Part shown: piece after piece, positions 17,460-57,175 of the stretch
Layout of the letters: the number at the start of each line of letters is the position of its first letter
Numbering within the stretch: position 1 is the first letter of the stretch
Program-made: the position numbers and the translations under genes
Notes under the pieces: model-generated
What the model was told of the DNA's origin: nothing
What the model saw: only the letters and a program-made list of their open reading frames with translations
Database searches by the model: none
Assembly: GCA_910587745.1 (NCBI GenBank)
Contig: CAJUNE010000002.1
Span: 2,097 to 66,096, forward strand
DNA from: an uncultured Bacilli bacterium
Lineage (GTDB): Bacteria > Bacillota_I > Bacilli_A > RF39 > UBA660
DNA length: 64,000 nucleotides
Direction of reading: 5' to 3'

Positions 17460-20306
17460 TTACTTTACAACTATATTGATTATTTTATTTGGAACTATTA
17501 TAGTTTTAACTATTTCTTTGCCTTCTAAATATTTAGTAACTTTTTCATCTTTTAATGCTAAATCTTTTAAAACTTCTTCTTCAGTATTTAAAGCAACTTT
17601 AATGGTGTTACGAAGTTTGCCATTTACAGATATAGCTATATTAACTTCATCATCTACTAATTTTTCTTCGTCATATGTTGGCCAAGGCTCATATGCAATA
17701 GTATTATTATGACCATACATTTCCCATATCTCTTCACCTAAATGTGGGGTTACACATGATAACATCTTAATAAAACCTTCTGCATAAACTTTCGGACATT
17801 TCATAGTTTTATAACAAACATTTACAAAAACCATAAATTGACTAATTGCTGTGTTAAATCCTAATGTCTCAAAATCATTGGTTACTTTTTTAACCATTGT
17901 GTGATAGGCTTTATCTAATGAACCATCATTATTATCTGTGATATTTTCCATATTGGTGAAGAAACGCCATACTCTATCTACAAACTTTTTAGCTCCTTCA
18001 ACACCTTTACTACTCCATGGTTTGGAATCTTCAATTGGTCCCATAAACATTTCATATAATCTTAATGTGTCAGCACCATAACTTGCTGCGATATCTTTAG
18101 GGTCAATAGCAAACTCAGGATATCTTTTTCCCATTTTGATACCATTTTCACCTAGTATCATTCCTTGATGAACTAGTTTTTTAAATGGTTCTTTAACAGG
18201 TGATAAACCTTTATCATATAAATAATTGTTCCAAATTCTAGAATACATTAAATGCCCTACAGCGTGCTCTGGTCCACCCATATATAAATCAACTGGTAAC
18301 CAATGTTTGGCTAATTCTTGATTACAAAATTCTTTATCATTATTTGGGTCGATATATCTTAAATAATACCAACTAGAACCAGCACTGCCTGGCATAGTGG
18401 ATGTTTCTCTTACTCCTTTAATACCATTTTCGGTAACGTATGTTTTCCATTCAACAGCATTCTCTAAAGGAGCCTTTCCATTGTGACCTTTGTAATCTTT
18501 TAATTCTGGTAAAACAAGAGGTAATTCTTTATCTTCAAGTAATATATCTTCACCATTTTCTAAATGAACAATTGGAACTGGTTCGCCCCAATATCTTTGA
18601 CGAGCAAATATCCATTCTCTAAACTTATAATTAATTTTCTTAGAGCCTAATCCTCTTTCTTCTAACCATGCAACCATTTTATTAATAGCTTCTTCTTTAT
18701 TTAAACCATTTAAAATGTCAGAATTAATGTGAGTTCCATCATCAGTGTATGCGCCCTCACCTTTCATTAATAATGAAAAGCTATATTTGTGAGCTTCATT
18801 AGTTAATGTATCTATTAAATTTTCTTTATCTATCCATTTGATATCAGCGATATCTTGCTCTTCTTTGGAAATAGCTATTTGTTCTAAACTTTTTAACTTT
18901 CCAACAACTGTATAACAAGTTATATGGCGATTTACATCTTTATGGGCTGCATAAAATGTATCATAATAAATAAATTCCATCTCTCTTAAATCCGCAAAAT
19001 CTGTATATCCTGTTTCTTCTGTAATTTCTCTTTTAGCAGCTTCGATTGGTGTCTCTTTACCTTCAATGCCACCCATTACAAAATCTATCCAGTTATATTT
19101 TTTGTTATTTACACACAAATATTTATCTTCAGTTGGATGTTTAATTATAGCATTTACTACTCTTCTTTCAGTCATGGGTTTATCACTTCTTACTTCAGAA
19201 GAACCACTGCCAATAAAGTTTTTAGCTAATACTTGAATTATTGGAATATTAAATTTTTTAGCAAATTCATAATCTCTTTCATCATGGGCTGGAACTGCCA
19301 TTATTGCTCCTGTACCATAACTTGCTAAAACATAATCACTTATATAAATAGGTATTTTAGTATCATTAACAGGATTTATAGCATATGCACCAGTGAATAC
19401 TCCTGTTTTATCTTTATTTAGTTCTGTTCTTTCTAAATCACTTTTACTAGCGCATACTTTTTTGTATTCTAAAACTTCTTCTTTTTTATCTGGTGTAGTT
19501 ATTATATCAACATATTCATGTTCGGGTGCTAATACACAATATGTAGCACCATATAATGTATCTGGACGAGTTGTAAATACGGTAAAATCTAAATCATGGT
19601 TATCAATTTTAAATTTAACATGGGCTCCAATAGATTTACCAATCCAATGTGCTTGCATCTCTTTAGTAGATTCGGGCCAATCAATTTCATTTAAGCCTTC
19701 TAATAACCTTTCCGCAAATTTGGGTTGGTCTATACATAACTGTTTCATTTTCTTACGAATTACAGGGTAGCCCCCTCTTTCAGATTTTCCATCAATTACT
19801 TCATCATTTGATAAAACAGTTCCTAATTCTTCACACCAATTAACAGGCATATCGATATATTTAGCATAACCATCTTTGTATAATTCTTTAAATATCCATT
19901 GAGTCCATTTATAATATTTTGGATCACTTGTAGATATCATTTTTGACCAGTCATAATCAAAACCTAAAGTATTTAATTGTTCACTAAAATATTTAATATT
20001 TTTTTCAGTAAAACCACTTGGATGATTGCCAGTTTGAACTGCATATTGCTCTGCGGGCAAACCAAAAGAATCATAACCCATTGGGTGTAATACATTATAT
20101 CCTTGCATTCTTTTCATACGTGATACTATATCTGTTGCTGTATATCCTTCAACATGTCCTGCATGTAAACCAACACCACTTGGATAAGGGAACATATCTA
20201 ATACATAATATTTTGGTTTACTAAAATCCCAAACATCAGTTTTAAAAGTTTCATTTTCTTGCCAATATTTTTGCCATTTTTGTTCTATAGTTTTATAATC
20301 GTACAT
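17460..20306 (-). CDS. leuS: leucyl-tRNA synthetase with an inserted Nudix-box domain
   Basis: HAGH (HIGH variant), editing-domain blocks ([28 protein letters not shown]), RQRYWGEP and a KMGKR (KMSKS-like) motif. It is 948 aa, longer than the roughly 800-860 aa I recall as usual, because of an insert at about aa 365-515. Confidence 0.95.
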
Positions 20307-20413
20307 ATAAGCCCTCTTTTCTTATAATTATAGTTTAAATTATATAGTTTGAGTGGTTAAATGTCAATTGTTTTATTGTTTACCACTTAAAAAGAAATAT
20401 CTATTGATATCTC

Positions 20414-20929
20414 TTATTTTCTTTCAACTGGTTTATCTTCTGTTAATAATTTTTGTTTAATGTGAACAGACATTTTTCTTTCACCAACTTGATATGTATA
20501 TATTCCTCCAATAACTTGATTGTATAGAGCTCTTCCAAGAGGTGAATTAATCGAAATTTTATCTTCATTATGTAATGTTCCTATGGTTGCTGTTAATTCA
20601 GTTTCCATTTCTTCAACATCATGTGATGGAAACATTATTTCTAATAATAATCTGTCACCTATATCTACTCTTGTATCTTCTCCGTGTTTTTCAATAATTT
20701 TTATTCGATCTCTTTTTTTTCGCAAATCTTGTAAATTATCTAAAATCAATTTTTCTCTTCTAACTAAATCACATGAGGTTGCACTTGAATAGTGTTCATC
20801 TAATAAAATATCTTTTGCTTCTGTACTTCTTGTTGCTAAAAAACTTTTTAATTCTTCTTCTAATGCACTTATTCTTTGTAAATAATCCTTATAACCTACA
20901 ACATCTAAATAATATATATTTTCTTCCAT
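20414..20929 (-). CDS. GreA/GreB-like protein (C-terminal domain homolog)
   Basis: An N-terminal coiled-coil-like region and the C-terminal ISINSPLGRALYNQVIGGIYTY, which resembles the GreA C-terminal domain motif. Confidence 0.6.
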   Translation of the reverse strand: MEENIYYLDVVGYKDYLQRISALEEELKSFLATRSTEAKDILLDEHYSSATSCDLVRREKLILDNLQDLRKKRDRIKIIEKHGEDTRVDIGDRLLLEIMFPSHDVEEMETELTATIGTLHNEDKISINSPLGRALYNQVIGGIYTYQVGERKMSVHIKQKLLTEDKPVERK

Positions 20930-20962: not shown

Positions 20963-22000
20963 TTATTTTAAATCTTTTCTTACTCTTAAAATCATTTCTC
21001 TTTTAAGTTTTGTTCCTTTGTATTCATCGTCTAAATTTGGTATGCCATTTAATGCATTTTGAAGTTTTTCTCTTAATTCTTCATTTTCCATATAGTATAT
21101 AGCAATTGTTATTATTTCAACGTTCTTACTTTCTATAATTTTATCTACAGCATAACTTGAACAAGGTCTATTACATATAGCTAAGGTGATTATATAATTT
21201 AACCAAAAATCAGTTTTTTTTGCATTGCCATTTTCATTTAAAATGTAATCTATCATTCCAATATACGTTGTGTTTTCTGTATTCTTTATTAAATCAATAA
21301 TTCTTATATAGTCTTTACTTTCGACTATACCTTTTATAATTTTATCTCTTGAGTCTTTATTATCTACTTCATGGTCTTTTAAAAACATACTTAAGTGAAC
21401 TGCGTAAATACCCGTTTTTTTGGCATTTAATAACCCTTCTGCAAATTCGTTTATTGATACAATAGTTGCAATATTCGCTACAGCAACAATGTATCTTGAA
21501 TCTTTTAGTTCGATTACTCTTCTTTCTAATAACTCTTTTGTTTCTGGATTTAATTTTGAACCAATGTCTCTAAGCATGTAAAAAATATATGTACTATTAT
21601 CATATTTTGCCATAGCAGCAGCTAGTTTCTCAATTGGCGCAAACATAATACCTCTCGCATAATAATACATTCTGATTGGATCTTTGCTTCTTATCATTCC
21701 TTTACTAAGTTCATTTAAAATTTTCTTTTTTTCTTCTTCTGATAAATCTTTTAAATTTTGAATAAAATAGGCATATTCTAAAATATAATAACTGTCTAAT
21801 TTTTTAGATAAAGTATTCGCTACTCTTCCTTTATTTATCCTCTCTATATGTTTTCCACATAAATATATTAGTCTAGTATCATTAGAACTAAAAATATAAT
21901 CTTCAATAAATTTTAATTCAACTTCCCCTGCTTTAATTAAATTATTTAACTCTTTTATTCTTTCTTCTTTTGATTCTAATAATACTTCTTCAACACTCAT
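20963..22000 (-). CDS. hypothetical alpha-helical protein (345 aa)
   Basis: A long intact ORF with no recognisable catalytic motif. Confidence 0.5.
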   Translation of the reverse strand: MSVEEVLLESKEERIKELNNLIKAGEVELKFIEDYIFSSNDTRLIYLCGKHIERINKGRVANTLSKKLDSYYILEYAYFIQNLKDLSEEEKKKILNELSKGMIRSKDPIRMYYYARGIMFAPIEKLAAAMAKYDNSTYIFYMLRDIGSKLNPETKELLERRVIELKDSRYIVAVANIATIVSINEFAEGLLNAKKTGIYAVHLSMFLKDHEVDNKDSRDKIIKGIVESKDYIRIIDLIKNTENTTYIGMIDYILNENGNAKKTDFWLNYIITLAICNRPCSSYAVDKIIESKNVEIITIAIYYMENEELREKLQNALNGIPNLDDEYKGTKLKREMILRVRKDLK

Positions 22001-52282: not shown

Positions 52283-55200
52283 TTATTTGTTTTTCTTTTT
52301 GAATACATATACTGATAATCCTATAAGTATTGTCATTATAGCTGTCATTAACCATATAATATAATTATTTTTTCTAGTTACTTTGTTAGAATTATGTATA
52401 GGATTGCTTGTACTTAATTTTTTGTATGATACTACAAATTTGCCTAAGTTTTTAGCTGATATTTCAATGTTTTCTCCGTCTTTTACATAATCTACAGGTT
52501 TTATTATATTATCTTCGGTTATTTCGTATACACCAATAAAGTCTTTATTATTATCTATTTTTATATTTATTTTGATTGGACTTGTAGCATTAACATCTAT
52601 TCTTTCATATTTGTCATTTTCTAAATAGATATCATAATATTCACTTAAAGCACCAAAACTATATTTTAAGTTTTCATCTAATTCGAAACCATTAGCACTT
52701 AATTTACCGTCTTCTTTAATTGCATTTGATGGGATTTTTACATCAACTTTATCTGTTGTATAGTTTTTATATTCACTATCATCTGGTTTTTCTGTATCAG
52801 GTTTATCACTTGGCTTGTTATTATTACCAGAGTTTCCTGGCTTATTAGGTTCATTTGGTTTATTTGGAATATTTGGTGTATCAGGGTTTTCAGGTTTATT
52901 TCCTTCATTCGGTTTATCAGTATTAGGTTTGTCGTCTGGTTTTTCTGGTTCACCAGGATTGTCTGGAACTTCAGGCTTATCTGGTTCTTCAGGTTTTTCA
53001 GGGACATCTGGTTTTCCATCATCGATACCAATTGTATCTATTACTGCAGTAACCTTTCCCTCATTTCCTACTTTGTCATAGAATATTATTTCATATGTTC
53101 CATTTTCAGTAAATTCATAAACGCCATTACCTTCTTTAAATGTTATTTCTTCACTTGGATTTATTACTGTTACTGTTACTTTGTCTTTTGTCTTGTCGTA
53201 TTTTAACTCAGCGGTAGGAGCAACTCTATCTATCCATGTGACAGTTGCTTCAATTTGTCCAACATTACCTCGACTATCTAAATATTGGAAGCCAAATGTA
53301 CCATTTTCGGTAAATGTATATTTATTACTAGCATCATTGTTTACTATTCTAAATCCATCTTCAAGGGTTAATGTTACTTCAACATTATCTCTGGTTGGAT
53401 TAGTTGTTGAATATTTTAATTCATAATGTGGTACTCTTGCTATCCATGTTACTATCGCTTTTATCGAACCAGTATTACCTGCTCTATCAACAAATTCAAA
53501 AGTAAATTCACCATTATCATTAAATACATATTCATCACTACCACCATTATTGGTAATTGTTATTGGTTCGCTTGGTTTTAATTTGGCTGTAACTGCTTTA
53601 TCTGTTAAATGAATTGTACTATATTCTACTTCAGCTGTAGGTGCAGTTTTATCTATCCAATTAACAGAAATAGTTTTCTTACCTATATTTCCTAAATCAT
53701 CCATAAACTCTAATTCAACTGTATCATTTTCTAAGAAAGTAATTGTTTTACTATTATCTACTGGATTAATTGCAATTTGGACGTCTTTAGATAATATTGT
53801 TACATTTTTATCAAACTTCAGTGTTGCTACAACTTCCTCATTAGTAATAGCTGTTGTATTAAATGTTACATCTAATTTTGGTGCAGTTTTATCTATCCAT
53901 GTTACTTTTGCTGTTGTACTTCCTTTATTACCATTATCATCAACATATTCAAATGTAAACTCACCATTTTCGGTAAAGGTATGAGTCATTTTACCATCAT
54001 TATTAGTTACTGTTATTGGTCTAATTGGATTTACTAATTCAGCGACAACATCTTTGTTAGTTGGATTTACAATGTTATAATTAACGTCTGCTCTTGGAGT
54101 ATCATTTACTAAAACGTTTTCATATAGTTTTATAACCGATACAGCTAAAGCGATAATCTCACTGTCATAAGCACTTTGGCATTCGAATTTTACATATAAA
54201 GCTTTTTTAGCTACTGGGAATTCTATATGTTTTAGATTATCATTATCTCCTAAATTATTCTTTGTGGCAGCTAGTTCCCAATTTTGATTATCCATACTAA
54301 CATAAATTTTAACATTTCTAGCACGACCATATGGAACAAAAGTAATATACTTAGCATTTTTATCTGGAATATAATCTAGACCTGAGATATATCTTGGTTG
54401 GTCTAATTTTATTGTAACATATGCTGGCATTATTCCATGTTTAGATTGCCAAGAAGTATTTACATTACCGTCTAACATGTTTTCTACTCTTCCAGTTTGA
54501 GTGGCATTTACTTCATGAATAGTTAAATATTTAGATTGAATATACCATTTTTCATCATTAGTGTTGTTTTCTTTGAATGTGTAATATACAGGATCACTTG
54601 CTATCTCTGTTCCTTTGGCAATTACTCTTACATAAACTCTTTTATTGCCACTAAATATTGGATTTGTATTGGCAAATGAATTCCATCCATCTGCTGGATT
54701 TAACGTCCATTCCATTTCATCAGTTGCGCCAATCATTCTGTCTTCCTCATCATTAATGGAAATTAAACCAGTTGGGAATGACCTTTTAGTGATATCAATT
54801 GTATATATATTTGCATCAGTCATTGGTAAACCTGAAATATGAACTTTAATATCATTATTTACTGTTATACTTGCTACTTCCTCTGGAGTTAGCTCTACTG
54901 AGTGCTCATATACATCTTTCCAAGTATTGCCTCCATCTAAACTATAACTCCAATTAACTTGTGAGCTTTGCAATTGTTTTGATAATGTAATTTTATTAGC
55001 TGAGGCTCCACTAAATGAGAATGTTGCTATATCAGAATTTATCTCTCCTAATAAAGCTTGAGCTACAACTGGGACTTCTTTATATTGTAATGTATTTGCT
55101 CCAGTTGCTTTTGTAGCTTGTCGCAAAGTTTTATTTTGTAAAAGCATTAATTTACTTTTATACTCTGGTGATGTAATCTTAATTCCGATTCTACGAGTTA

Positions 55201-57175
55201 AATCATACATAGGAAGTGGATTATATGTATAAACTTCACTTATTTCTTCTGCTAAACTAATTAACTCTTCCTCTGTTTTAGTTTCATCTTTTATATATAA
55301 ATTTACTAATCCTAACCAAGCATCCCAGTTTATTATTTCTTCTCTTAAAGCATCACGATAAATTCTTTCTAGTTTCTTAGCATCATCTTTATATACTCTT
55401 TCAAGCATCATTATTAATTCTGCTTTTTCATATTTATCATATTCATTTTGAGCTTCTTGTGATAAGAAGAAATATGAAGCTGATTTTATTGTACCTGTAT
55501 TTGTTACAATTCCACTACTGAGATTTCCCCAGTCATTAGGCATTCTTGAATATCCTTGGGTATTAGCCCATGCAGTTTCTGCTACATTGTATGCTAATTG
55601 CCAAGCTCCTTTTCCCCCAACATTATAATAATATATATAAGCTGCATGAGCAGGTTGACCTACAACACTCGCAGGCACGCCCCACACACCATATAAATTG
55701 GCTGCTGTTTTTGAAAGTCCACCACAAACAGCTCCTTCTTCAAATACTATCCATAACTTTGGATTGCCTGATTTATATGTTATATTGTAATCTGATAAAT
55801 TGTATTTTTGGTCCCATTTAGCATAGTTATCTTGACTATAATATTGTGGTCTGTAATAACTATATCCAAAGGTATAAGTTATATATTTATATGGATTAAA
55901 TCTTTCTGTTGTATTTGGATATCTTTTAGCTGAGTAGTCTCTTAGCCATTTGATTTCTTCATCATCAATATTGTTATGCATTAACCAACGCATTTCTTCA
56001 ACAGTATAACTTTCAAACATTGAATTTGACATTAACTTATTGTTTAAATGCATATCTTTATATATTTCATATCGAGTTACAGCATTGGAACATTGGCTAT
56101 TGTTAATCCATAAGCAAACACCCGAAGAATGAGTTAATGATAAAGATAACATCATTCTTAAATATAAATCTTTATATTTAGTACCATTGGCTGTTACCCC
56201 TTCATTTTCTAAATCTTCTTTGTGTGCATGATATAAATTACTAAGTACTTGTAATGAATTGGCATATGTACCATTAGGGATTCCACCAACAGTCCACAAT
56301 CTTAATGCCTCTTCATTGTATATGAACCATTTTAATGTTTCCATATTTTTAGGATCTGCATCTACAAAAGTTCTTAATTGAAATTGTCCTACTCTATCAA
56401 TAAAGTTTCTTTGTAATAACGTAAGTTTTAAATTATCTTGAATTGAGCCTGATGTATAATTAGCTTTTATTGCTTTATCAAATTCACTTACTGGTATAGT
56501 TATATCATCACTATATCCTTCTTTTATTAATTTACTATCACCCCATACAGCATGGTCTGAAGCATTAGAACCATTATCGTGAGCATATAATCTTATGTAA
56601 TTTACTCCTCTAATATCTATCTTAGCATAAGAAGCATTGCTTACACCTTTTTTAGCATCAGGATTTTCTTCGGTTTGTAATGTCCATTCTTTACCATCTA
56701 CAGAAGTATAAATATAAAATTTGACACCATTACCATTATTCCCTGCAGTAGTATTTAAACCATAATATGTCGTAAAATATGCATAATCTTTATATTCACT
56801 AATATCATATTCTACAGTTGAGGTGGCATGAGCCCATATTCCTTTTTTAAACGTTGTGGAATAACCATTTAACTTTAATATTAATGGTGTATTTGATTGG
56901 GTTTTATCAAGAGATACTGTTCCCCAACCTACCTGTGCTTTATTATAAGTTATATCCGATAAGTATAAAACTTGTTCGGAGACATTGCCTCTATCAACTA
57001 ATACTGTCTCTGGTAGGGCATAACTCCTTGTAGGATGACTAAAATATATCAATATTCCTATCAAAAATATTACCCCACACATTACATAAAAAATTCTCGA
57101 TTTTAGAATTTTACTAAAACTCAAAATCTTATTGATATCCATTACACTCTTCCTCTCACTAATATAGATTATCAT
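52283..57175 (-). CDS. giant surface protein (1630 aa): NPCBM domain, possible transglutaminase-like Cys/His core, F5/8 type C (discoidin) domain, tandem Ig-like repeats, Pro-rich stalk, C-terminal TM anchor
   Basis: VGWGTVSLDKT...GIWAHA is NPCBM-like. GAVCGG...PAHAAY is a possible Cys/His core. MLDGNVNTSWQS is discoidin-like. (V/N)WI(D/A)(K/R)(T/V)(A/P) repeat ends occur four times. The stalk is made of PEKPEEPDKPEVPD-type units. Confidence 0.8.
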   Translation of the reverse strand: MIIYISERKSVMDINKILSFSKILKSRIFYVMCGVIFLIGILIYFSHPTRSYALPETVLVDRGNVSEQVLYLSDITYNKAQVGWGTVSLDKTQSNTPLILKLNGYSTTFKKGIWAHATSTVEYDISEYKDYAYFTTYYGLNTTAGNNGNGVKFYIYTSVDGKEWTLQTEENPDAKKGVSNASYAKIDIRGVNYIRLYAHDNGSNASDHAVWGDSKLIKEGYSDDITIPVSEFDKAIKANYTSGSIQDNLKLTLLQRNFIDRVGQFQLRTFVDADPKNMETLKWFIYNEEALRLWTVGGIPNGTYANSLQVLSNLYHAHKEDLENEGVTANGTKYKDLYLRMMLSLSLTHSSGVCLWINNSQCSNAVTRYEIYKDMHLNNKLMSNSMFESYTVEEMRWLMHNNIDDEEIKWLRDYSAKRYPNTTERFNPYKYITYTFGYSYYRPQYYSQDNYAKWDQKYNLSDYNITYKSGNPKLWIVFEEGAVCGGLSKTAANLYGVWGVPASVVGQPAHAAYIYYYNVGGKGAWQLAYNVAETAWANTQGYSRMPNDWGNLSSGIVTNTGTIKSASYFFLSQEAQNEYDKYEKAELIMMLERVYKDDAKKLERIYRDALREEIINWDAWLGLVNLYIKDETKTEEELISLAEEISEVYTYNPLPMYDLTRRIGIKITSPEYKSKLMLLQNKTLRQATKATGANTLQYKEVPVVAQALLGEINSDIATFSFSGASANKITLSKQLQSSQVNWSYSLDGGNTWKDVYEHSVELTPEEVASITVNNDIKVHISGLPMTDANIYTIDITKRSFPTGLISINDEEDRMIGATDEMEWTLNPADGWNSFANTNPIFSGNKRVYVRVIAKGTEIASDPVYYTFKENNTNDEKWYIQSKYLTIHEVNATQTGRVENMLDGNVNTSWQSKHGIMPAYVTIKLDQPRYISGLDYIPDKNAKYITFVPYGRARNVKIYVSMDNQNWELAATKNNLGDNDNLKHIEFPVAKKALYVKFECQSAYDSEIIALAVSVIKLYENVLVNDTPRADVNYNIVNPTNKDVVAELVNPIRPITVTNNDGKMTHTFTENGEFTFEYVDDNGNKGSTTAKVTWIDKTAPKLDVTFNTTAITNEEVVATLKFDKNVTILSKDVQIAINPVDNSKTITFLENDTVELEFMDDLGNIGKKTISVNWIDKTAPTAEVEYSTIHLTDKAVTAKLKPSEPITITNNGGSDEYVFNDNGEFTFEFVDRAGNTGSIKAIVTWIARVPHYELKYSTTNPTRDNVEVTLTLEDGFRIVNNDASNKYTFTENGTFGFQYLDSRGNVGQIEATVTWIDRVAPTAELKYDKTKDKVTVTVINPSEEITFKEGNGVYEFTENGTYEIIFYDKVGNEGKVTAVIDTIGIDDGKPDVPEKPEEPDKPEVPDNPGEPEKPDDKPNTDKPNEGNKPENPDTPNIPNKPNEPNKPGNSGNNNKPSDKPDTEKPDDSEYKNYTTDKVDVKIPSNAIKEDGKLSANGFELDENLKYSFGALSEYYDIYLENDKYERIDVNATSPIKINIKIDNNKDFIGVYEITEDNIIKPVDYVKDGENIEISAKNLGKFVVSYKKLSTSNPIHNSNKVTRKNNYIIWLMTAIMTILIGLSVYVFKKKNK
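52780..53035 (-). repeat. coding low-complexity Pro/Lys/Asn/Glu-rich stalk (short degenerate repeats)
   Basis: DVPEKPEEPDKPEVPDNPGEPEKPDDKPNTDKPNEGNKPENPDTPNIPNKPNEPNKP. Confidence 0.8.
53040..54110 (-). repeat. four to five tandem coding repeats of about 215-240 nt (Ig-like modules)
   Basis: Recurrent ATCTATCCA(T/A) (T/A)GT-type junctions near 53230, 53440, 53655 and 53895. In the protein the units end in VTWIDKTAP, VNWIDKTAP, VTWIARVP and VTWIDRVAP. Confidence 0.75.

What the first reader, a model, noticed from the sequence alone, without database searches (positions are those of the whole stretch)
18762..19214. Nudix-hydrolase domain inserted inside leucyl-tRNA synthetase
LeuRS here is 948 aa. 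About 150 extra residues (roughly aa 365-515) lie between two blocks: [24 protein letters not shown] at the end of the editing domain, and [23 protein letters not shown]. From memory, B. subtilis LeuRS has only about 20 residues at this point.
The insert contains a perfect Nudix box GX5EX7REUXEEXGU, namely [23 protein letters not shown] (aa 412-434, nt 19073-19005), with surrounding beta-strand-like sequence. The frame is intact and flanking LeuRS motifs are preserved, although the KMSKS loop is unusual (KMGKRYPEF).
Nudix enzymes cleave nucleoside-diphosphate-X compounds, including Ap4A, and aminoacyl-tRNA synthetases can make Ap4A as a side product. A built-in Nudix domain could therefore couple synthesis and removal of such alarmones, or act on adenylate-derived by-products. 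I do not recall a described LeuRS with this architecture.
Basis: partly seen in the sequence, partly recalled or inferred. Interest (0 to 1): 0.7.

Follow-up and report, generated by a model that had tools for sequence, protein, structure and literature searches.

The report
Nudix hydrolase nested inside leucyl-tRNA synthetase
The leucyl-tRNA synthetase of this uncultured gut bacterium carries a complete, apparently active Nudix (nucleotide-pyrophosphate-cleaving) enzyme inside its proofreading domain, and this Nudix subfamily turns out to be repeatedly fused to or encoded next to tRNA synthetases in small-genome bacteria, an association I could not find described in the literature.

Summary
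The gene at 17460-20306 (-) encodes a 948-aa bacterial LeuRS. In it, 155 residues (aa 362-516) replace an 8-10-residue surface loop of the CP1 editing domain (T. thermophilus 364-373). The insert is a true Nudix domain: Pfam gives 46 bits against a cutoff of 21, the box GX5EX7REUXEEXGU is perfect, the AlphaFold model has pLDDT 96, and TM is 0.7-0.8 to small Nudix hydrolases. It is not an assembly artefact, because independent assemblies carry it. It is under purifying selection (dN/dS 0.06-0.26). LeuRS catalytic and editing motifs are intact.

The wider picture is new. The insert belongs to a narrow Nudix subfamily with the signature [11 protein letters not shown]. In the sequences examined, members lie inside LeuRS (at least four insertion points, up to three copies), in one case inside a ProRS, or as free-standing genes, many of them directly upstream of thrS or leuS. 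Close relatives of this LeuRS have no insert, a second type (B), or both.

The substrate is not established. The best inference is a tethered nucleotide-polyphosphate hydrolase, with Ap4A/Ap4N-type synthetase by-products as the leading candidate. I found no paper describing it. I rate it a new variant of a known kind, of fairly high interest.

The parts
17460..20306 (-). leuS coding sequence, 948 aa, bacterial-type leucyl-tRNA synthetase carrying the insert
   Evidence: ORF. TIGR00396 984 bits vs cutoff 548. Foldseek of the full model matches E. coli and T. thermophilus LeuRS, TM 0.70-0.72 normalised to the query.
20154..20165 (-). HIGH motif (HAGH, aa 48-51) of the class I catalytic site
   Evidence: Translation. 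Invariant in 52 homologs.
19224..19643 (-). CP1 editing domain, first part (aa 222-361). Includes the T-rich motif TTRPDT (nt 19557-19574), GTG (nt 19308-19316) and the editing aspartate D345 (nt 19272-19274, = Tt D347)
   Evidence: Pfam PF13603 aa 220-363 = profile 2-143/185. Alignment to T. thermophilus LeuRS. Motif translation.
18759..19223 (-). Nudix insert (aa 362-516, 155 residues), type A. It corresponds end to end to a free-standing ~160-aa Nudix ORF
   Evidence: PF00293 46-50 bits. AF2 domain model pLDDT 95.9. Foldseek TM 0.7-0.8 to Nudix hydrolases. End-to-end alignment with free-standing proteins. dN/dS 0.06-0.26.
19005..19073 (-). Nudix box [23 protein letters not shown] (aa 412-434), the catalytic metal-binding motif
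   Evidence: Translation. The strict box is kept in 48 of 49 Bacilli LeuRS insert copies.
18924..18956 (-). Subfamily signature [11 protein letters not shown] (aa 451-461)
   Evidence: Invariant or nearly invariant columns in the family alignment A3. Translation.
18627..18758 (-). CP1 editing domain, second part (aa 517-560), resuming at '[13 protein letters not shown]'
   Evidence: Alignment query 517-719 = Tt 374-579. Translation.
18123..18137 (-). KMSKS-loop variant KMGKR (aa 724-728). The leucine-specific domain that precedes it in T. thermophilus is absent
   Evidence: Translation. Invariant in insert-bearing and insert-less homologs. Query 719-742 spans Tt 579-654.
17571..17912 (-). Anticodon-binding domain (aa 799-912)
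   Evidence: Pfam PF08264 70 bits.

Best explanation
**What it is (high confidence).** This is a working LeuRS. A short surface loop of its CP1 editing domain has been replaced by a complete, independently folding Nudix pyrophosphohydrolase with all catalytic residues. The two enzymes are translated as one chain. The aminoacylation and editing sites are untouched.

**Family (shown).** The Nudix belongs to a narrow subfamily that is recurrently linked to aminoacyl-tRNA synthetases. In the sequences examined it is nested in LeuRS at several loops, nested in one ProRS, or encoded directly upstream of thrS or leuS.

**How it most likely works (inferred).** The Nudix acts as a tethered house-cleaning enzyme. 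It cleaves a nucleoside-polyphosphate compound that synthetases make or meet.
- Leading candidate: dinucleoside polyphosphates of the Ap4A/Ap4N type, formed when an aminoacyl-adenylate reacts with an NTP. The Nudix would cleave them asymmetrically to NTP + NMP close to their source.
- Second candidate: damaged or non-canonical NTPs.

**Confidence split.** About 0.95 that it is a real, expressed, selected Nudix domain in a functional LeuRS. About 0.5 that its role is synthetase-linked nucleotide-polyphosphate clearance. About 0.3 that the substrate is specifically Ap4A/Ap4N.
For: **Identity and fold.**

**Catalytic box.** Strictly conserved while the X positions vary, in 15/15 type-A and 33/34 type-B Bacilli inserts and in 101/107 free-standing members.

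**Selection.** dN/dS 0.06-0.26 for the insert against 0.06-0.10 for the backbone.

**LeuRS intact.** HIGH, KMxK, TTRPDT, GTG and D345 are all present.

**Narrow subfamily.** Only 407 clusters at E<=1e-3 among 1.84 billion representatives. Of the best 150, 97 have LeuRS flanks.

**Independent synthetase links.**
- LeuRS insertion at q361, q~208, q~239 and q~630.
- ProRS insertion in P0198.
- Free-standing gene 73-89 bp upstream of thrS in three clusters and many assemblies.
- Free-standing gene 2-3 bp upstream of leuS in two lineages.

**Substrate class (weak).**
- Fold neighbours are small NTP, Ap4A and RppH-type Nudix enzymes.
- The best curated family is RppH.
- Profile hits include AvrM14, NUDT12 and the Ap4A hydrolases CT771 and 1f3y.

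**Background.** Synthetases are the main source of Ap4A/Ap4N, and Nudix enzymes are one of the known routes of removal (PMC13627108).
Against: - No enzymatic data exist.
- RppH and Ap4A-type family thresholds are far from met: 27-40 bits against a cutoff of 118.
- Fold similarity to NudI, MutT1 and NudB is as good as to Ap4A hydrolases. ADP-sugar pyrophosphatases also appear in the profile search.
- By my recollection of the older biochemical literature, LeuRS is not a strong Ap4A producer compared with LysRS or PheRS.
- The Nudix occupies different loops in different LeuRS. A precise geometric coupling to one active site is therefore unlikely.
- CPR LeuRS also host Ham1, HAD and Ser_hydrolase domains. 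LeuRS may simply be a permissive scaffold.
- One free-standing member (P0129) is not next to a synthetase gene.
- Whether these genomes lack ApaH or YqeK was not tested.
Confidence: 0.5

Rival explanations
1. Hitch-hiking house-cleaning enzyme. The Nudix is an ordinary sanitiser of the nucleotide pool, MutT/NudI-like, acting on oxidised, deaminated or surplus (d)NTPs. Its chemistry has nothing to do with LeuRS. It sits in LeuRS because this essential, well-expressed protein tolerates insertions in surface loops. In very small genomes, fusion secures expression and retention.
For: - Related CPR LeuRS host other unrelated small hydrolases at other loops: a complete Ham1/ITPase, HAD and Ser_hydrolase.
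- The Nudix occupies at least four different loops.
- The top fold neighbours include NudI/YfaO, MutT1 and NudB.
- The distribution among close relatives is patchy: none, A, B or A+B. This suggests the insert is dispensable for LeuRS itself.
Against: - The subfamily is almost confined to synthetase contexts. It is also linked to ProRS and to thrS and leuS operons as a separate gene. Permissiveness of the LeuRS scaffold does not explain that.
- 97 of the top 150 clusters are LeuRS-embedded.
Confidence: 0.25
2. RNA- or tRNA-end enzyme. The Nudix acts on a diphosphate-containing group at the end of an RNA held by the synthetase. Examples are an Np4N, NAD or triphosphate 5' cap (RppH- or decapping-like), or a pyrophosphorylated tRNA 3'-CCA end. 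It would then be a repair or quality-control step for tRNA, added to the domain that already handles the CCA end.
For: - The best curated-family hits are RppH and YtkD RNA pyrophosphohydrolases.
- The best profile hit in the PDB is AvrM14, which I recall as an mRNA-decapping Nudix effector. NUDT12 is next, and I recall it removes NAD caps.
- Site 1 lies in CP1, 16 residues after the editing aspartate.
- The free-standing genes neighbour thrS and the tRNA-modification gene miaA.
- The conserved lead-in is basic: R373, K376, R381.
Against: - All these similarities are weak, far below family cutoffs.
- The other insertion points and the ProRS site are not near the CCA-binding pocket.
- No orientation data could be obtained, because no coordinates or PAE are available.
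- The 3'-pyrophosphate idea rests only on my recollection of the toxSAS literature.
Confidence: 0.12
3. Non-catalytic module. The Nudix fold serves as a nucleotide sensor or as an extra tRNA- or protein-binding surface that modulates LeuRS, without hydrolysing anything.
For: - Some CPR copies have lost the strict box: 20/83 at site 1, 6/16 at site 2, 4/4 at site 3, and L005.
- Multiple copies per protein could serve binding avidity.
Against: - In the window's clade the full catalytic box is invariant while neighbouring positions vary freely. That pattern is typical of selection on catalysis.
- The free-standing ~160-aa members are ordinary single-domain enzymes.
Confidence: 0.05
4. Selfish or neutral insertion. 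The segment is an intein-like or otherwise mobile in-frame element that spreads among synthetase genes and is merely tolerated.
For: - Insert states are interleaved on the backbone tree.
- There are several insertion sites, tandem copies and a 1,430-aa repeat protein.
- A whole ORF is inserted in frame.
- The window's insert is much closer to a free-standing clade (60-67%) than to CPR-embedded copies (28-31%).
Against: - There are no intein termini. The insert begins 'KNFIGSG' and ends 'LLMKG', with no Cys/Ser/Thr nucleophiles and no His-Asn.
- There is no nuclease or recombinase domain.
- Rfam finds no intron.
- dN/dS is well below 1 and the catalytic residues are kept.
- Composition is fully host-like.
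Confidence: 0.05
5. Assembly chimera or mis-join.
For: None found.
Against: - Identical architecture in independent MAGs and assemblies at 82-99% identity.
- The frame is intact.
- GC and GC3 are uniform.
- The insert and backbone co-diverge.
Confidence: 0.01

Closest known systems
Canonical bacterial LeuRS (T. thermophilus 1H3N/2BYT, E. coli 4AQ7/4ARC)
   Same: Same overall fold and domain order: catalytic Rossmann fold, CP1 editing domain, anticodon-binding and C-terminal domains. HIGH, KMxK and the editing motifs are conserved.
   Different: 155 extra residues forming a Nudix domain replace loop Tt 364-373 of CP1. No solved LeuRS has this; all are <=880 aa. The leucine-specific domain is missing and the KMSKS motif reads KMGKR.
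Free-standing ~155-165-aa Nudix genes upstream of thrS (P0278, P0296, P0340, P0271; the named ones are Candidatus Saccharibacteria)
   Same: 52-67% identical over the full length of the insert. They share the lead-in F.G.G.S..R.DKP.T.R, the Nudix box and the [11 protein letters not shown] signature.
   Different: They are separate genes with their own start codon, next to a threonyl- rather than inside a leucyl-tRNA synthetase gene. They are uncharacterised, with only generic 'MutT/NUDIX' annotation.
Nudix Ap4A hydrolases and RppH/NudH (Aquifex 3I7U, Chlamydia CT771 4MPO, lupin 1F3Y, E. coli RppH)
   Same: Single-domain Nudix fold of the same size, TM 0.6-0.7. These are the best curated-family and some of the best sequence hits. 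Their substrates (Ap4A, Np4A caps) are synthetase by-products (PMC13627108).
   Different: 13-21% identity. NCBIfam RppH scores 27-40 bits against a 118-bit cutoff. The subfamily signature and N-terminal lead-in are not features of those families. The insert is equally similar to the NTP-specific NudI and MutT1.
Other synthetases with an appended enzyme domain, e.g. IleRS with an N-acetyltransferase domain (NCBIfam NF040702)
   Same: A class I synthetase of the same subclass, fused to an unrelated small-molecule enzyme domain. A curated family exists for it (listed).
   Different: Different partner enzyme. Here the extra domain is nested within the editing domain rather than appended. No curated family exists for the LeuRS-Nudix form.

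Membership tests
Bacterial leucyl-tRNA synthetase (TIGR00396 leuS_bact) | Whole-protein profile score above the curated cutoff | tested here: met
   983.7 bits against cutoff 548.4, in three stretches because of the insert.
Bacterial leucyl-tRNA synthetase (TIGR00396 leuS_bact) | Class I signature motifs HIGH and KMSKS | tested here: met
   HAGH at aa 48-51. KMGKR at aa 724-728 is a variant, but K724, M725 and the second lysine K727 are kept. It is invariant across the clade.
Bacterial leucyl-tRNA synthetase (TIGR00396 leuS_bact) | CP1 editing domain with the threonine-rich motif, GTG and the conserved aspartate | tested here: met
   PF13603 202 bits. TTRPDT at 245-250, GTG at 331-333, D345 = Tt D347.
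Bacterial leucyl-tRNA synthetase (TIGR00396 leuS_bact) | Aminoacylation and editing activity; sole leuS of the genome | not testable with these tools
   Only 64 kb of the genome is available. The pattern scan found one locus per MAG, but it would miss a divergent paralogue.
Nudix hydrolase superfamily (PF00293) | Profile score above the Pfam gathering threshold | tested here: met
   46.2 bits in the full protein and 49.8 bits for the insert alone, against 21.1.
Nudix hydrolase superfamily (PF00293) | Nudix box GX5EX7REUXEEXGU | tested here: met
   G412-x5-E418-x7-R426 E427 I-x-E430 E431-x-G433 Y434.
Nudix hydrolase superfamily (PF00293) | Alpha/beta/alpha Nudix fold | tested here: met
   AF2 pLDDT 95.9, pTM 0.87. 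Foldseek E 6e-10, TM 0.76-0.82 to 2AZW and 3OGA.
Nudix hydrolase superfamily (PF00293) | Mg2+/Mn2+-dependent pyrophosphohydrolase activity | not testable with these tools
   Needs an enzyme assay.
RppH/NudH RNA pyrophosphohydrolase / Ap4A hydrolase (NCBIfam NF001936 and relatives) | Equivalog score above the curated cutoff | tested here: not met
   27.9-28.5 bits for the window's insert and 22-40 bits for free-standing members, against a cutoff of 118.
RppH/NudH RNA pyrophosphohydrolase / Ap4A hydrolase (NCBIfam NF001936 and relatives) | Closest structural neighbours are Ap4A hydrolases or RppH rather than other Nudix classes | tested here: inconclusive
   3I7U, 4MPO and RppH are among the top 20. 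NudI/YfaO, 2AZW and MutT1 score as well or better.
Intein / protein-splicing element | N-terminal Cys/Ser, C-terminal His-Asn followed by Cys/Ser/Thr, Hint-fold blocks | tested here: not met
   The insert begins (A)KNFIGSG and ends LLMKG|EGAY. The only Pfam hit in it is NUDIX.
Self-splicing intron | Match to group I or II intron RNA families, with the reading frame interrupted | tested here: not met
   No Rfam match in the window. The frame is continuous and under purifying selection.

The most novel reading that the evidence does not exclude
The synthetase-linked Nudix subfamily is a previously unrecognised quality-control activity that acts on RNA rather than on free nucleotides. Held on the CCA-handling editing domain, it would remove diphosphate-containing groups from tRNA or RNA ends. 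Candidates are Np4N or NAD-type 5' caps, or toxin-added 3'-pyrophosphates on the CCA end. This would be a second, chemically different proofreading or repair step built into aminoacyl-tRNA synthetases of small-genome bacteria.
Probability: 0.12. Interest if true: 0.9.

Novelty: new variant of a known kind. Interest (0 to 1): 0.68.

Why it matters
Aminoacyl-tRNA synthetases are among the best-studied enzymes, and LeuRS CP1 is a drug target (benzoxaboroles). A catalytically intact second enzyme nested in that domain is an architecture I could not find described. It recurs in gut Bacilli and in several Candidate Phyla Radiation lineages, at several insertion points and in up to three copies.

The same Nudix subfamily is tied to ProRS, thrS and leuS. 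This is a classic 'Rosetta-stone' signal of a shared process. It makes an old question directly testable: how do cells, especially those with very small genomes, dispose of the dinucleoside polyphosphates that synthetases produce? A defined ~160-aa enzyme family and natural fused, unfused and insert-less LeuRS variants are available for comparison.

It also shows that LeuRS in ultra-small genomes acts as a scaffold for several house-cleaning hydrolases (Nudix, Ham1, HAD, serine hydrolase). Database names can be misled by this: one such LeuRS is labelled as an RdgB/HAM1 pyrophosphatase.

Tried and rejected
- **Synteny as proof of orthology with insert-less leuS.** Neighbours are conserved only in the nearest MAGs (L001, L002, L089, partly L091) and not in the 799-aa relatives. 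This gave no argument either way.
- **Search for a second leuS in the same genome.** The genome scan uses query-specific peptide patterns and keeps only 80 loci, so it cannot exclude a divergent paralogue. Left open.
- **Geometry of the Nudix active site relative to the editing and synthetic sites.** The prediction tool returns no coordinates or PAE.
- **Sequence search of the insert against solved structures.** Only box-level similarity, E >= 1e-3. The family profile improved this only to about 1e-6. No substrate assignment follows.
- **NCBIfam.** No curated family claims the insert or the free-standing proteins.
- **Rfam on the whole window.** No T-box, riboswitch or intron. There are no tRNAs either.
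- **Intein, intron and chimera readings.** Rejected; see rivals.
- **Idea that the KMGKR loop is linked to the insert.** Rejected, because insert-less relatives have it too.
- **Literature.** Seven full-text searches on LeuRS, synthetase, Nudix, CPR and Ap4A combinations found no description of this architecture.
- **The first backbone tree script timed out**. It was replaced by a faster distance calculation. All trees here are NJ without support values, so their topology should be read as indicative only.
Full report
**1.

The ORF at 17460-20306 on the minus strand encodes 948 aa. It is a bacterial leucyl-tRNA synthetase: TIGR00396 scores 984 bits against a cutoff of 548.

Pfam places the LeuRS editing domain at aa 220-363, but only up to profile position 143 of 185. 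A NUDIX domain (PF00293) follows at aa 394-504, with 46 bits against a gathering score of 21. The excised segment alone scores 50 bits.

A residue-level alignment with T. thermophilus LeuRS gives query 2-361 = Tt 4-363 and query 517-719 = Tt 374-579. So 155 residues (aa 362-516, nt 18759-19223) stand where T. thermophilus has a ten-residue loop (364-373). Insert-less close relatives have the eight residues 'EGGDISKE' there.

The insertion lies inside CP1, not at its end:
- It starts 16 residues after the editing aspartate (D345 = Tt D347).
- About 44 further CP1 residues follow it.

**2. It is not an artefact, and LeuRS looks functional**

The same gene occurs in independent assemblies:
- at 98-99% identity in L001, L002 and P0001;
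- at 82-90% identity, with the frame intact, in L089-L091.

GC (0.295 against 0.309) and third-position GC (0.168 against 0.159) of the insert match the rest of the gene.

All LeuRS functional motifs are present: HIGH (HAGH), the KMSKS loop (KMGKR, second lysine kept), the threonine-rich editing motif TTRPDT, GTG and D345.

The KMGKR variant and the lack of a leucine-specific domain are shared with insert-less relatives. They are lineage traits, not consequences of the insert.

The full-length AlphaFold model superposes on E. coli and T. thermophilus LeuRS, with TM about 0.7 normalised to the query.

**3. The insert is a selected, probably active Nudix enzyme**

- The isolated domain is predicted with pLDDT 95.9 and pTM 0.87.
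- It matches compact Nudix hydrolases at TM 0.7-0.8.
- Among 49 insert copies from related Bacilli LeuRS, 48 keep the strict box while the 'X' positions vary freely.
- Nei-Gojobori dN/dS among four type-A genes is 0.06-0.26 for the insert and 0.06-0.10 for the backbone. dS is about 0.9-1.6, near saturation, so these values are approximate.

**4. Two insert types and a patchy distribution**

Homologs of this LeuRS fall into four states:

| State | Length | Count (of 118 proteins classified) |
|---|---|---|
| No insert | ~799 aa | 72 |
| Type A, as in the window | ~946-954 aa | 12 |
| Type B, only ~26% identical to A but with a related signature (YYAYNKD against FYAAHKD) | ~937-946 aa | 31 |
| A and B in tandem | ~1,100 aa | 3 |

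- On a neighbour-joining tree of the backbone with the insert removed, these states are heavily interleaved.
- Within about 16% backbone divergence of the window protein there are A-bearing, B-bearing and insert-less proteins.
- Insert divergence rises with backbone divergence (Spearman ~0.46) but plateaus near 35%.
- The pattern indicates repeated loss and/or exchange. These data do not say which.

**5. The insert belongs to a narrow, synthetase-linked Nudix subfamily**

An exhaustive phmmer search of 1.84 billion representative proteins with the insert found only 407 clusters at E<=1e-3 and 155 at E<=1e-10. Of the best 150:
- 97 have LeuRS sequence on one or both sides;
- 36 are short (<=210 aa) with no LeuRS flank;
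- 17 are longer proteins with no LeuRS flank.

In LeuRS the domain occurs at four points:

| Site | Position (window-protein coordinates) | Location |
|---|---|---|
| 1 | q361/517 | loop inside CP1; the window's site |
| 2a | ~q207-209 | just before the CP1 hinge |
| 2b | ~q237-241 | first CP1 hairpin |
| 3 | ~q628-633 | hairpin that is a zinc knuckle in T. thermophilus |

Other findings on the subfamily:
- Up to three copies occur per protein (P0121, P0122, P0150).
- Carriers include Saccharibacteria, other Patescibacteria, Moranbacteria, Paceibacteria and a lineage that reads UGA as a sense codon.
- The Moranbacteria protein is KKP58971.1, on a 970-kb contig.
- One member is nested in a class II prolyl-tRNA synthetase, between the anticodon-binding and C-terminal domains (P0198).

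**6. Free-standing relatives and their neighbours**

About 100 clusters of 155-165-aa proteins are 52-67% identical to the window's insert.
- They align with it end to end, from residue 2 ('M-AKEFFG' against 'AKNFIGSG').
- They share a basic lead-in (F.G.G.S..R.DKP.T.R) and the signature [11 protein letters not shown].
- The few that carry a name are Candidatus Saccharibacteria.

Their genomic context:
- In three different clusters and many assemblies, the gene lies 73-89 bp upstream of thrS on the same strand, with miaA nearby.
- More distant free-standing members lie 2-3 bp upstream of leuS. One such leuS carries an embedded Nudix and another does not.
- One member (P0129) has no synthetase neighbour.

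How the window's insert relates to the other copies:
- It is 60-67% identical to the thrS-linked clade.
- It is only 28-31% identical to the copies embedded in CPR LeuRS, whose backbones are 44-45% identical to the window's.
- In the NJ tree of the subfamily, the type-A inserts and this free-standing clade form one group, and type B forms another.
- The Bacilli type-A insertion is therefore a separate event from the CPR insertions. The direction (capture of a free gene, or escape from LeuRS) is unresolved.

**7. What it most likely does**

Shown:
- a complete Nudix enzyme with conserved catalytic residues is tethered to an intact LeuRS;
- its subfamily is linked by fusion or adjacency to three different synthetases.

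Inferred: it hydrolyses a nucleoside-polyphosphate compound relevant to synthetases.

[quoted passage not shown] Nudix hydrolases are one of the known removal routes, alongside ApaH and YqeK (PMC13627108).

Weak similarity points the same way:
- the best curated family is RppH;
- fold neighbours include the Aquifex and Chlamydia Ap4A hydrolases and RppH;
- profile hits include AvrM14, NUDT12, CT771 and lupin Ap4A hydrolase.

None of this reaches a family threshold, and NTP-specific Nudix enzymes (NudI, MutT1, NudB) are equally close in fold.

**8. The main rival**

CPR LeuRS that carry this Nudix also carry other small hydrolases at other loops:
- a complete Ham1/ITPase domain (P0170/P0383, which NCBI names as an RdgB/HAM1 pyrophosphatase);
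- a HAD phosphatase (P0199);
- a Ser_hydrolase domain (P0190, P0226).

Together with the multiple Nudix insertion points, this suggests LeuRS is a permissive scaffold on which house-cleaning enzymes hitch-hike in very small genomes, without a mechanistic tie to leucylation.

Against this, the subfamily's links to ProRS and to thrS and leuS operons as a separate gene are not explained by scaffold permissiveness.

Other readings are listed with their evidence in the rivals section: an RNA- or tRNA-end reading, a non-catalytic reading and a selfish-element reading. Intein, intron and chimera readings were tested and not met.

**9. Novelty and verdict**

Seven full-text searches found no description of a LeuRS-Nudix architecture, or of a synthetase-linked Nudix family. 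No NCBIfam model exists for it. The sequences have sat in public databases under plain 'LeuRS' or 'NUDIX hydrolase' names.

Both component families are well known, so I class this as a new variant of a known kind.

The functional proposal is plausible but untested. Interest is fairly high, because the finding:
- extends to a cross-phylum pattern;
- defines a compact enzyme family for direct assay;
- touches a drug-target domain of an essential enzyme.

Noticed in passing
P0170/P0383 (1,330 aa), P0190, P0226, P0199 (related CPR LeuRS, not in the window): LeuRS proteins carrying the Nudix also contain other embedded small hydrolases: a complete Ham1/ITPase domain (residues 984-1167), Ser_hydrolase (~601-766) or HAD_2 (654-808). 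P0383 is named 'RdgB/HAM1 family pyrophosphatase' in GenBank (MCK5490653.1) although it is a LeuRS.
   Followed up: partly
P0198 (643 aa, JGI metagenome): A class II prolyl-tRNA synthetase has the same Nudix subfamily inserted between its anticodon-binding domain and its C-terminal domain (residues ~398-515). Its box is partly degenerate. It was seen on a single contig only.
   Followed up: partly
L081-L084, L092-L099 (free-standing Nudix loci): There is a conserved block: Imp-YgjV, the Nudix gene, thrS (73-89 bp downstream of the Nudix gene, same strand), then miaA/IPPT close downstream. It is present in many independent assemblies and is presumably from Saccharibacteria.
   Followed up: partly
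L005:910-3867 (JAYWGH010000072.1): This LeuRS gene has four in-frame TGA codons, and at least one aligns with a conserved glycine (Y*ADVLR against YGADTLR). That indicates UGA=Gly recoding (code 25, Gracilibacteria/Absconditabacteria-like). Its embedded Nudix box is degenerate (E to D, R to K).
   Followed up: partly
P0125 (379 aa) and P0276 (1,430 aa): These proteins consist of tandem repeats of this Nudix subfamily with no synthetase part. P0276 would hold roughly eight or nine copies.
   Followed up: no
P0139, P0140, P0145 (279-388 aa): These are stand-alone proteins made of a degenerate C-terminal piece of the LeuRS CP1 domain plus the Nudix. In P0139, for example, 'VPLHIQEH' stands in place of 'VPAHDxRD'. 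They look like truncated duplicates of a LeuRS-Nudix.
   Followed up: no
window 18123-18137 and the region aa 719-742 of leuS: This LeuRS clade lacks the leucine-specific domain. It has KMGKRYPEF in place of the usual KMSKSKGN, and this is invariant in 52 homologs with and without the insert.
   Followed up: yes
window 20307-20413: Only 107 bp separate leuS from the upstream gene, and Rfam finds no T-box leader or any other RNA family in the whole 64-kb window. From memory, leuS in many Firmicutes has a T-box leader.
   Followed up: partly
window 20414-20929 and 20963-22000 (-): Upstream of leuS lie a 171-aa protein with only a sub-threshold GreA/GreB C-terminal match (24 bits against 26.9) and a 345-aa protein with no Pfam match. 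In the 99%-identical leuS locus L001 these two genes are only 69% and 44% identical to the window's, so this is a variable spot next to a conserved gene.
   Followed up: no
window 52283-57175 (-): A 1,630-aa ORF has NPCBM and F5/8 type C (galactose-binding-like) domains. It is probably a large secreted or surface glycan-binding protein or glycosidase of a gut bacterium.
   Followed up: no
P0009, P0014, L007 (tandem A+B LeuRS): In the tandem forms, type B follows the 'GAMTEDGxHINS' strand, whereas in B-only proteins it precedes that strand. Short flank-like motifs ('QV..TG', a degenerate second 'A..D..I') are repeated. This hints at an origin by unequal recombination between A- and B-type alleles.
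   Followed up: partly
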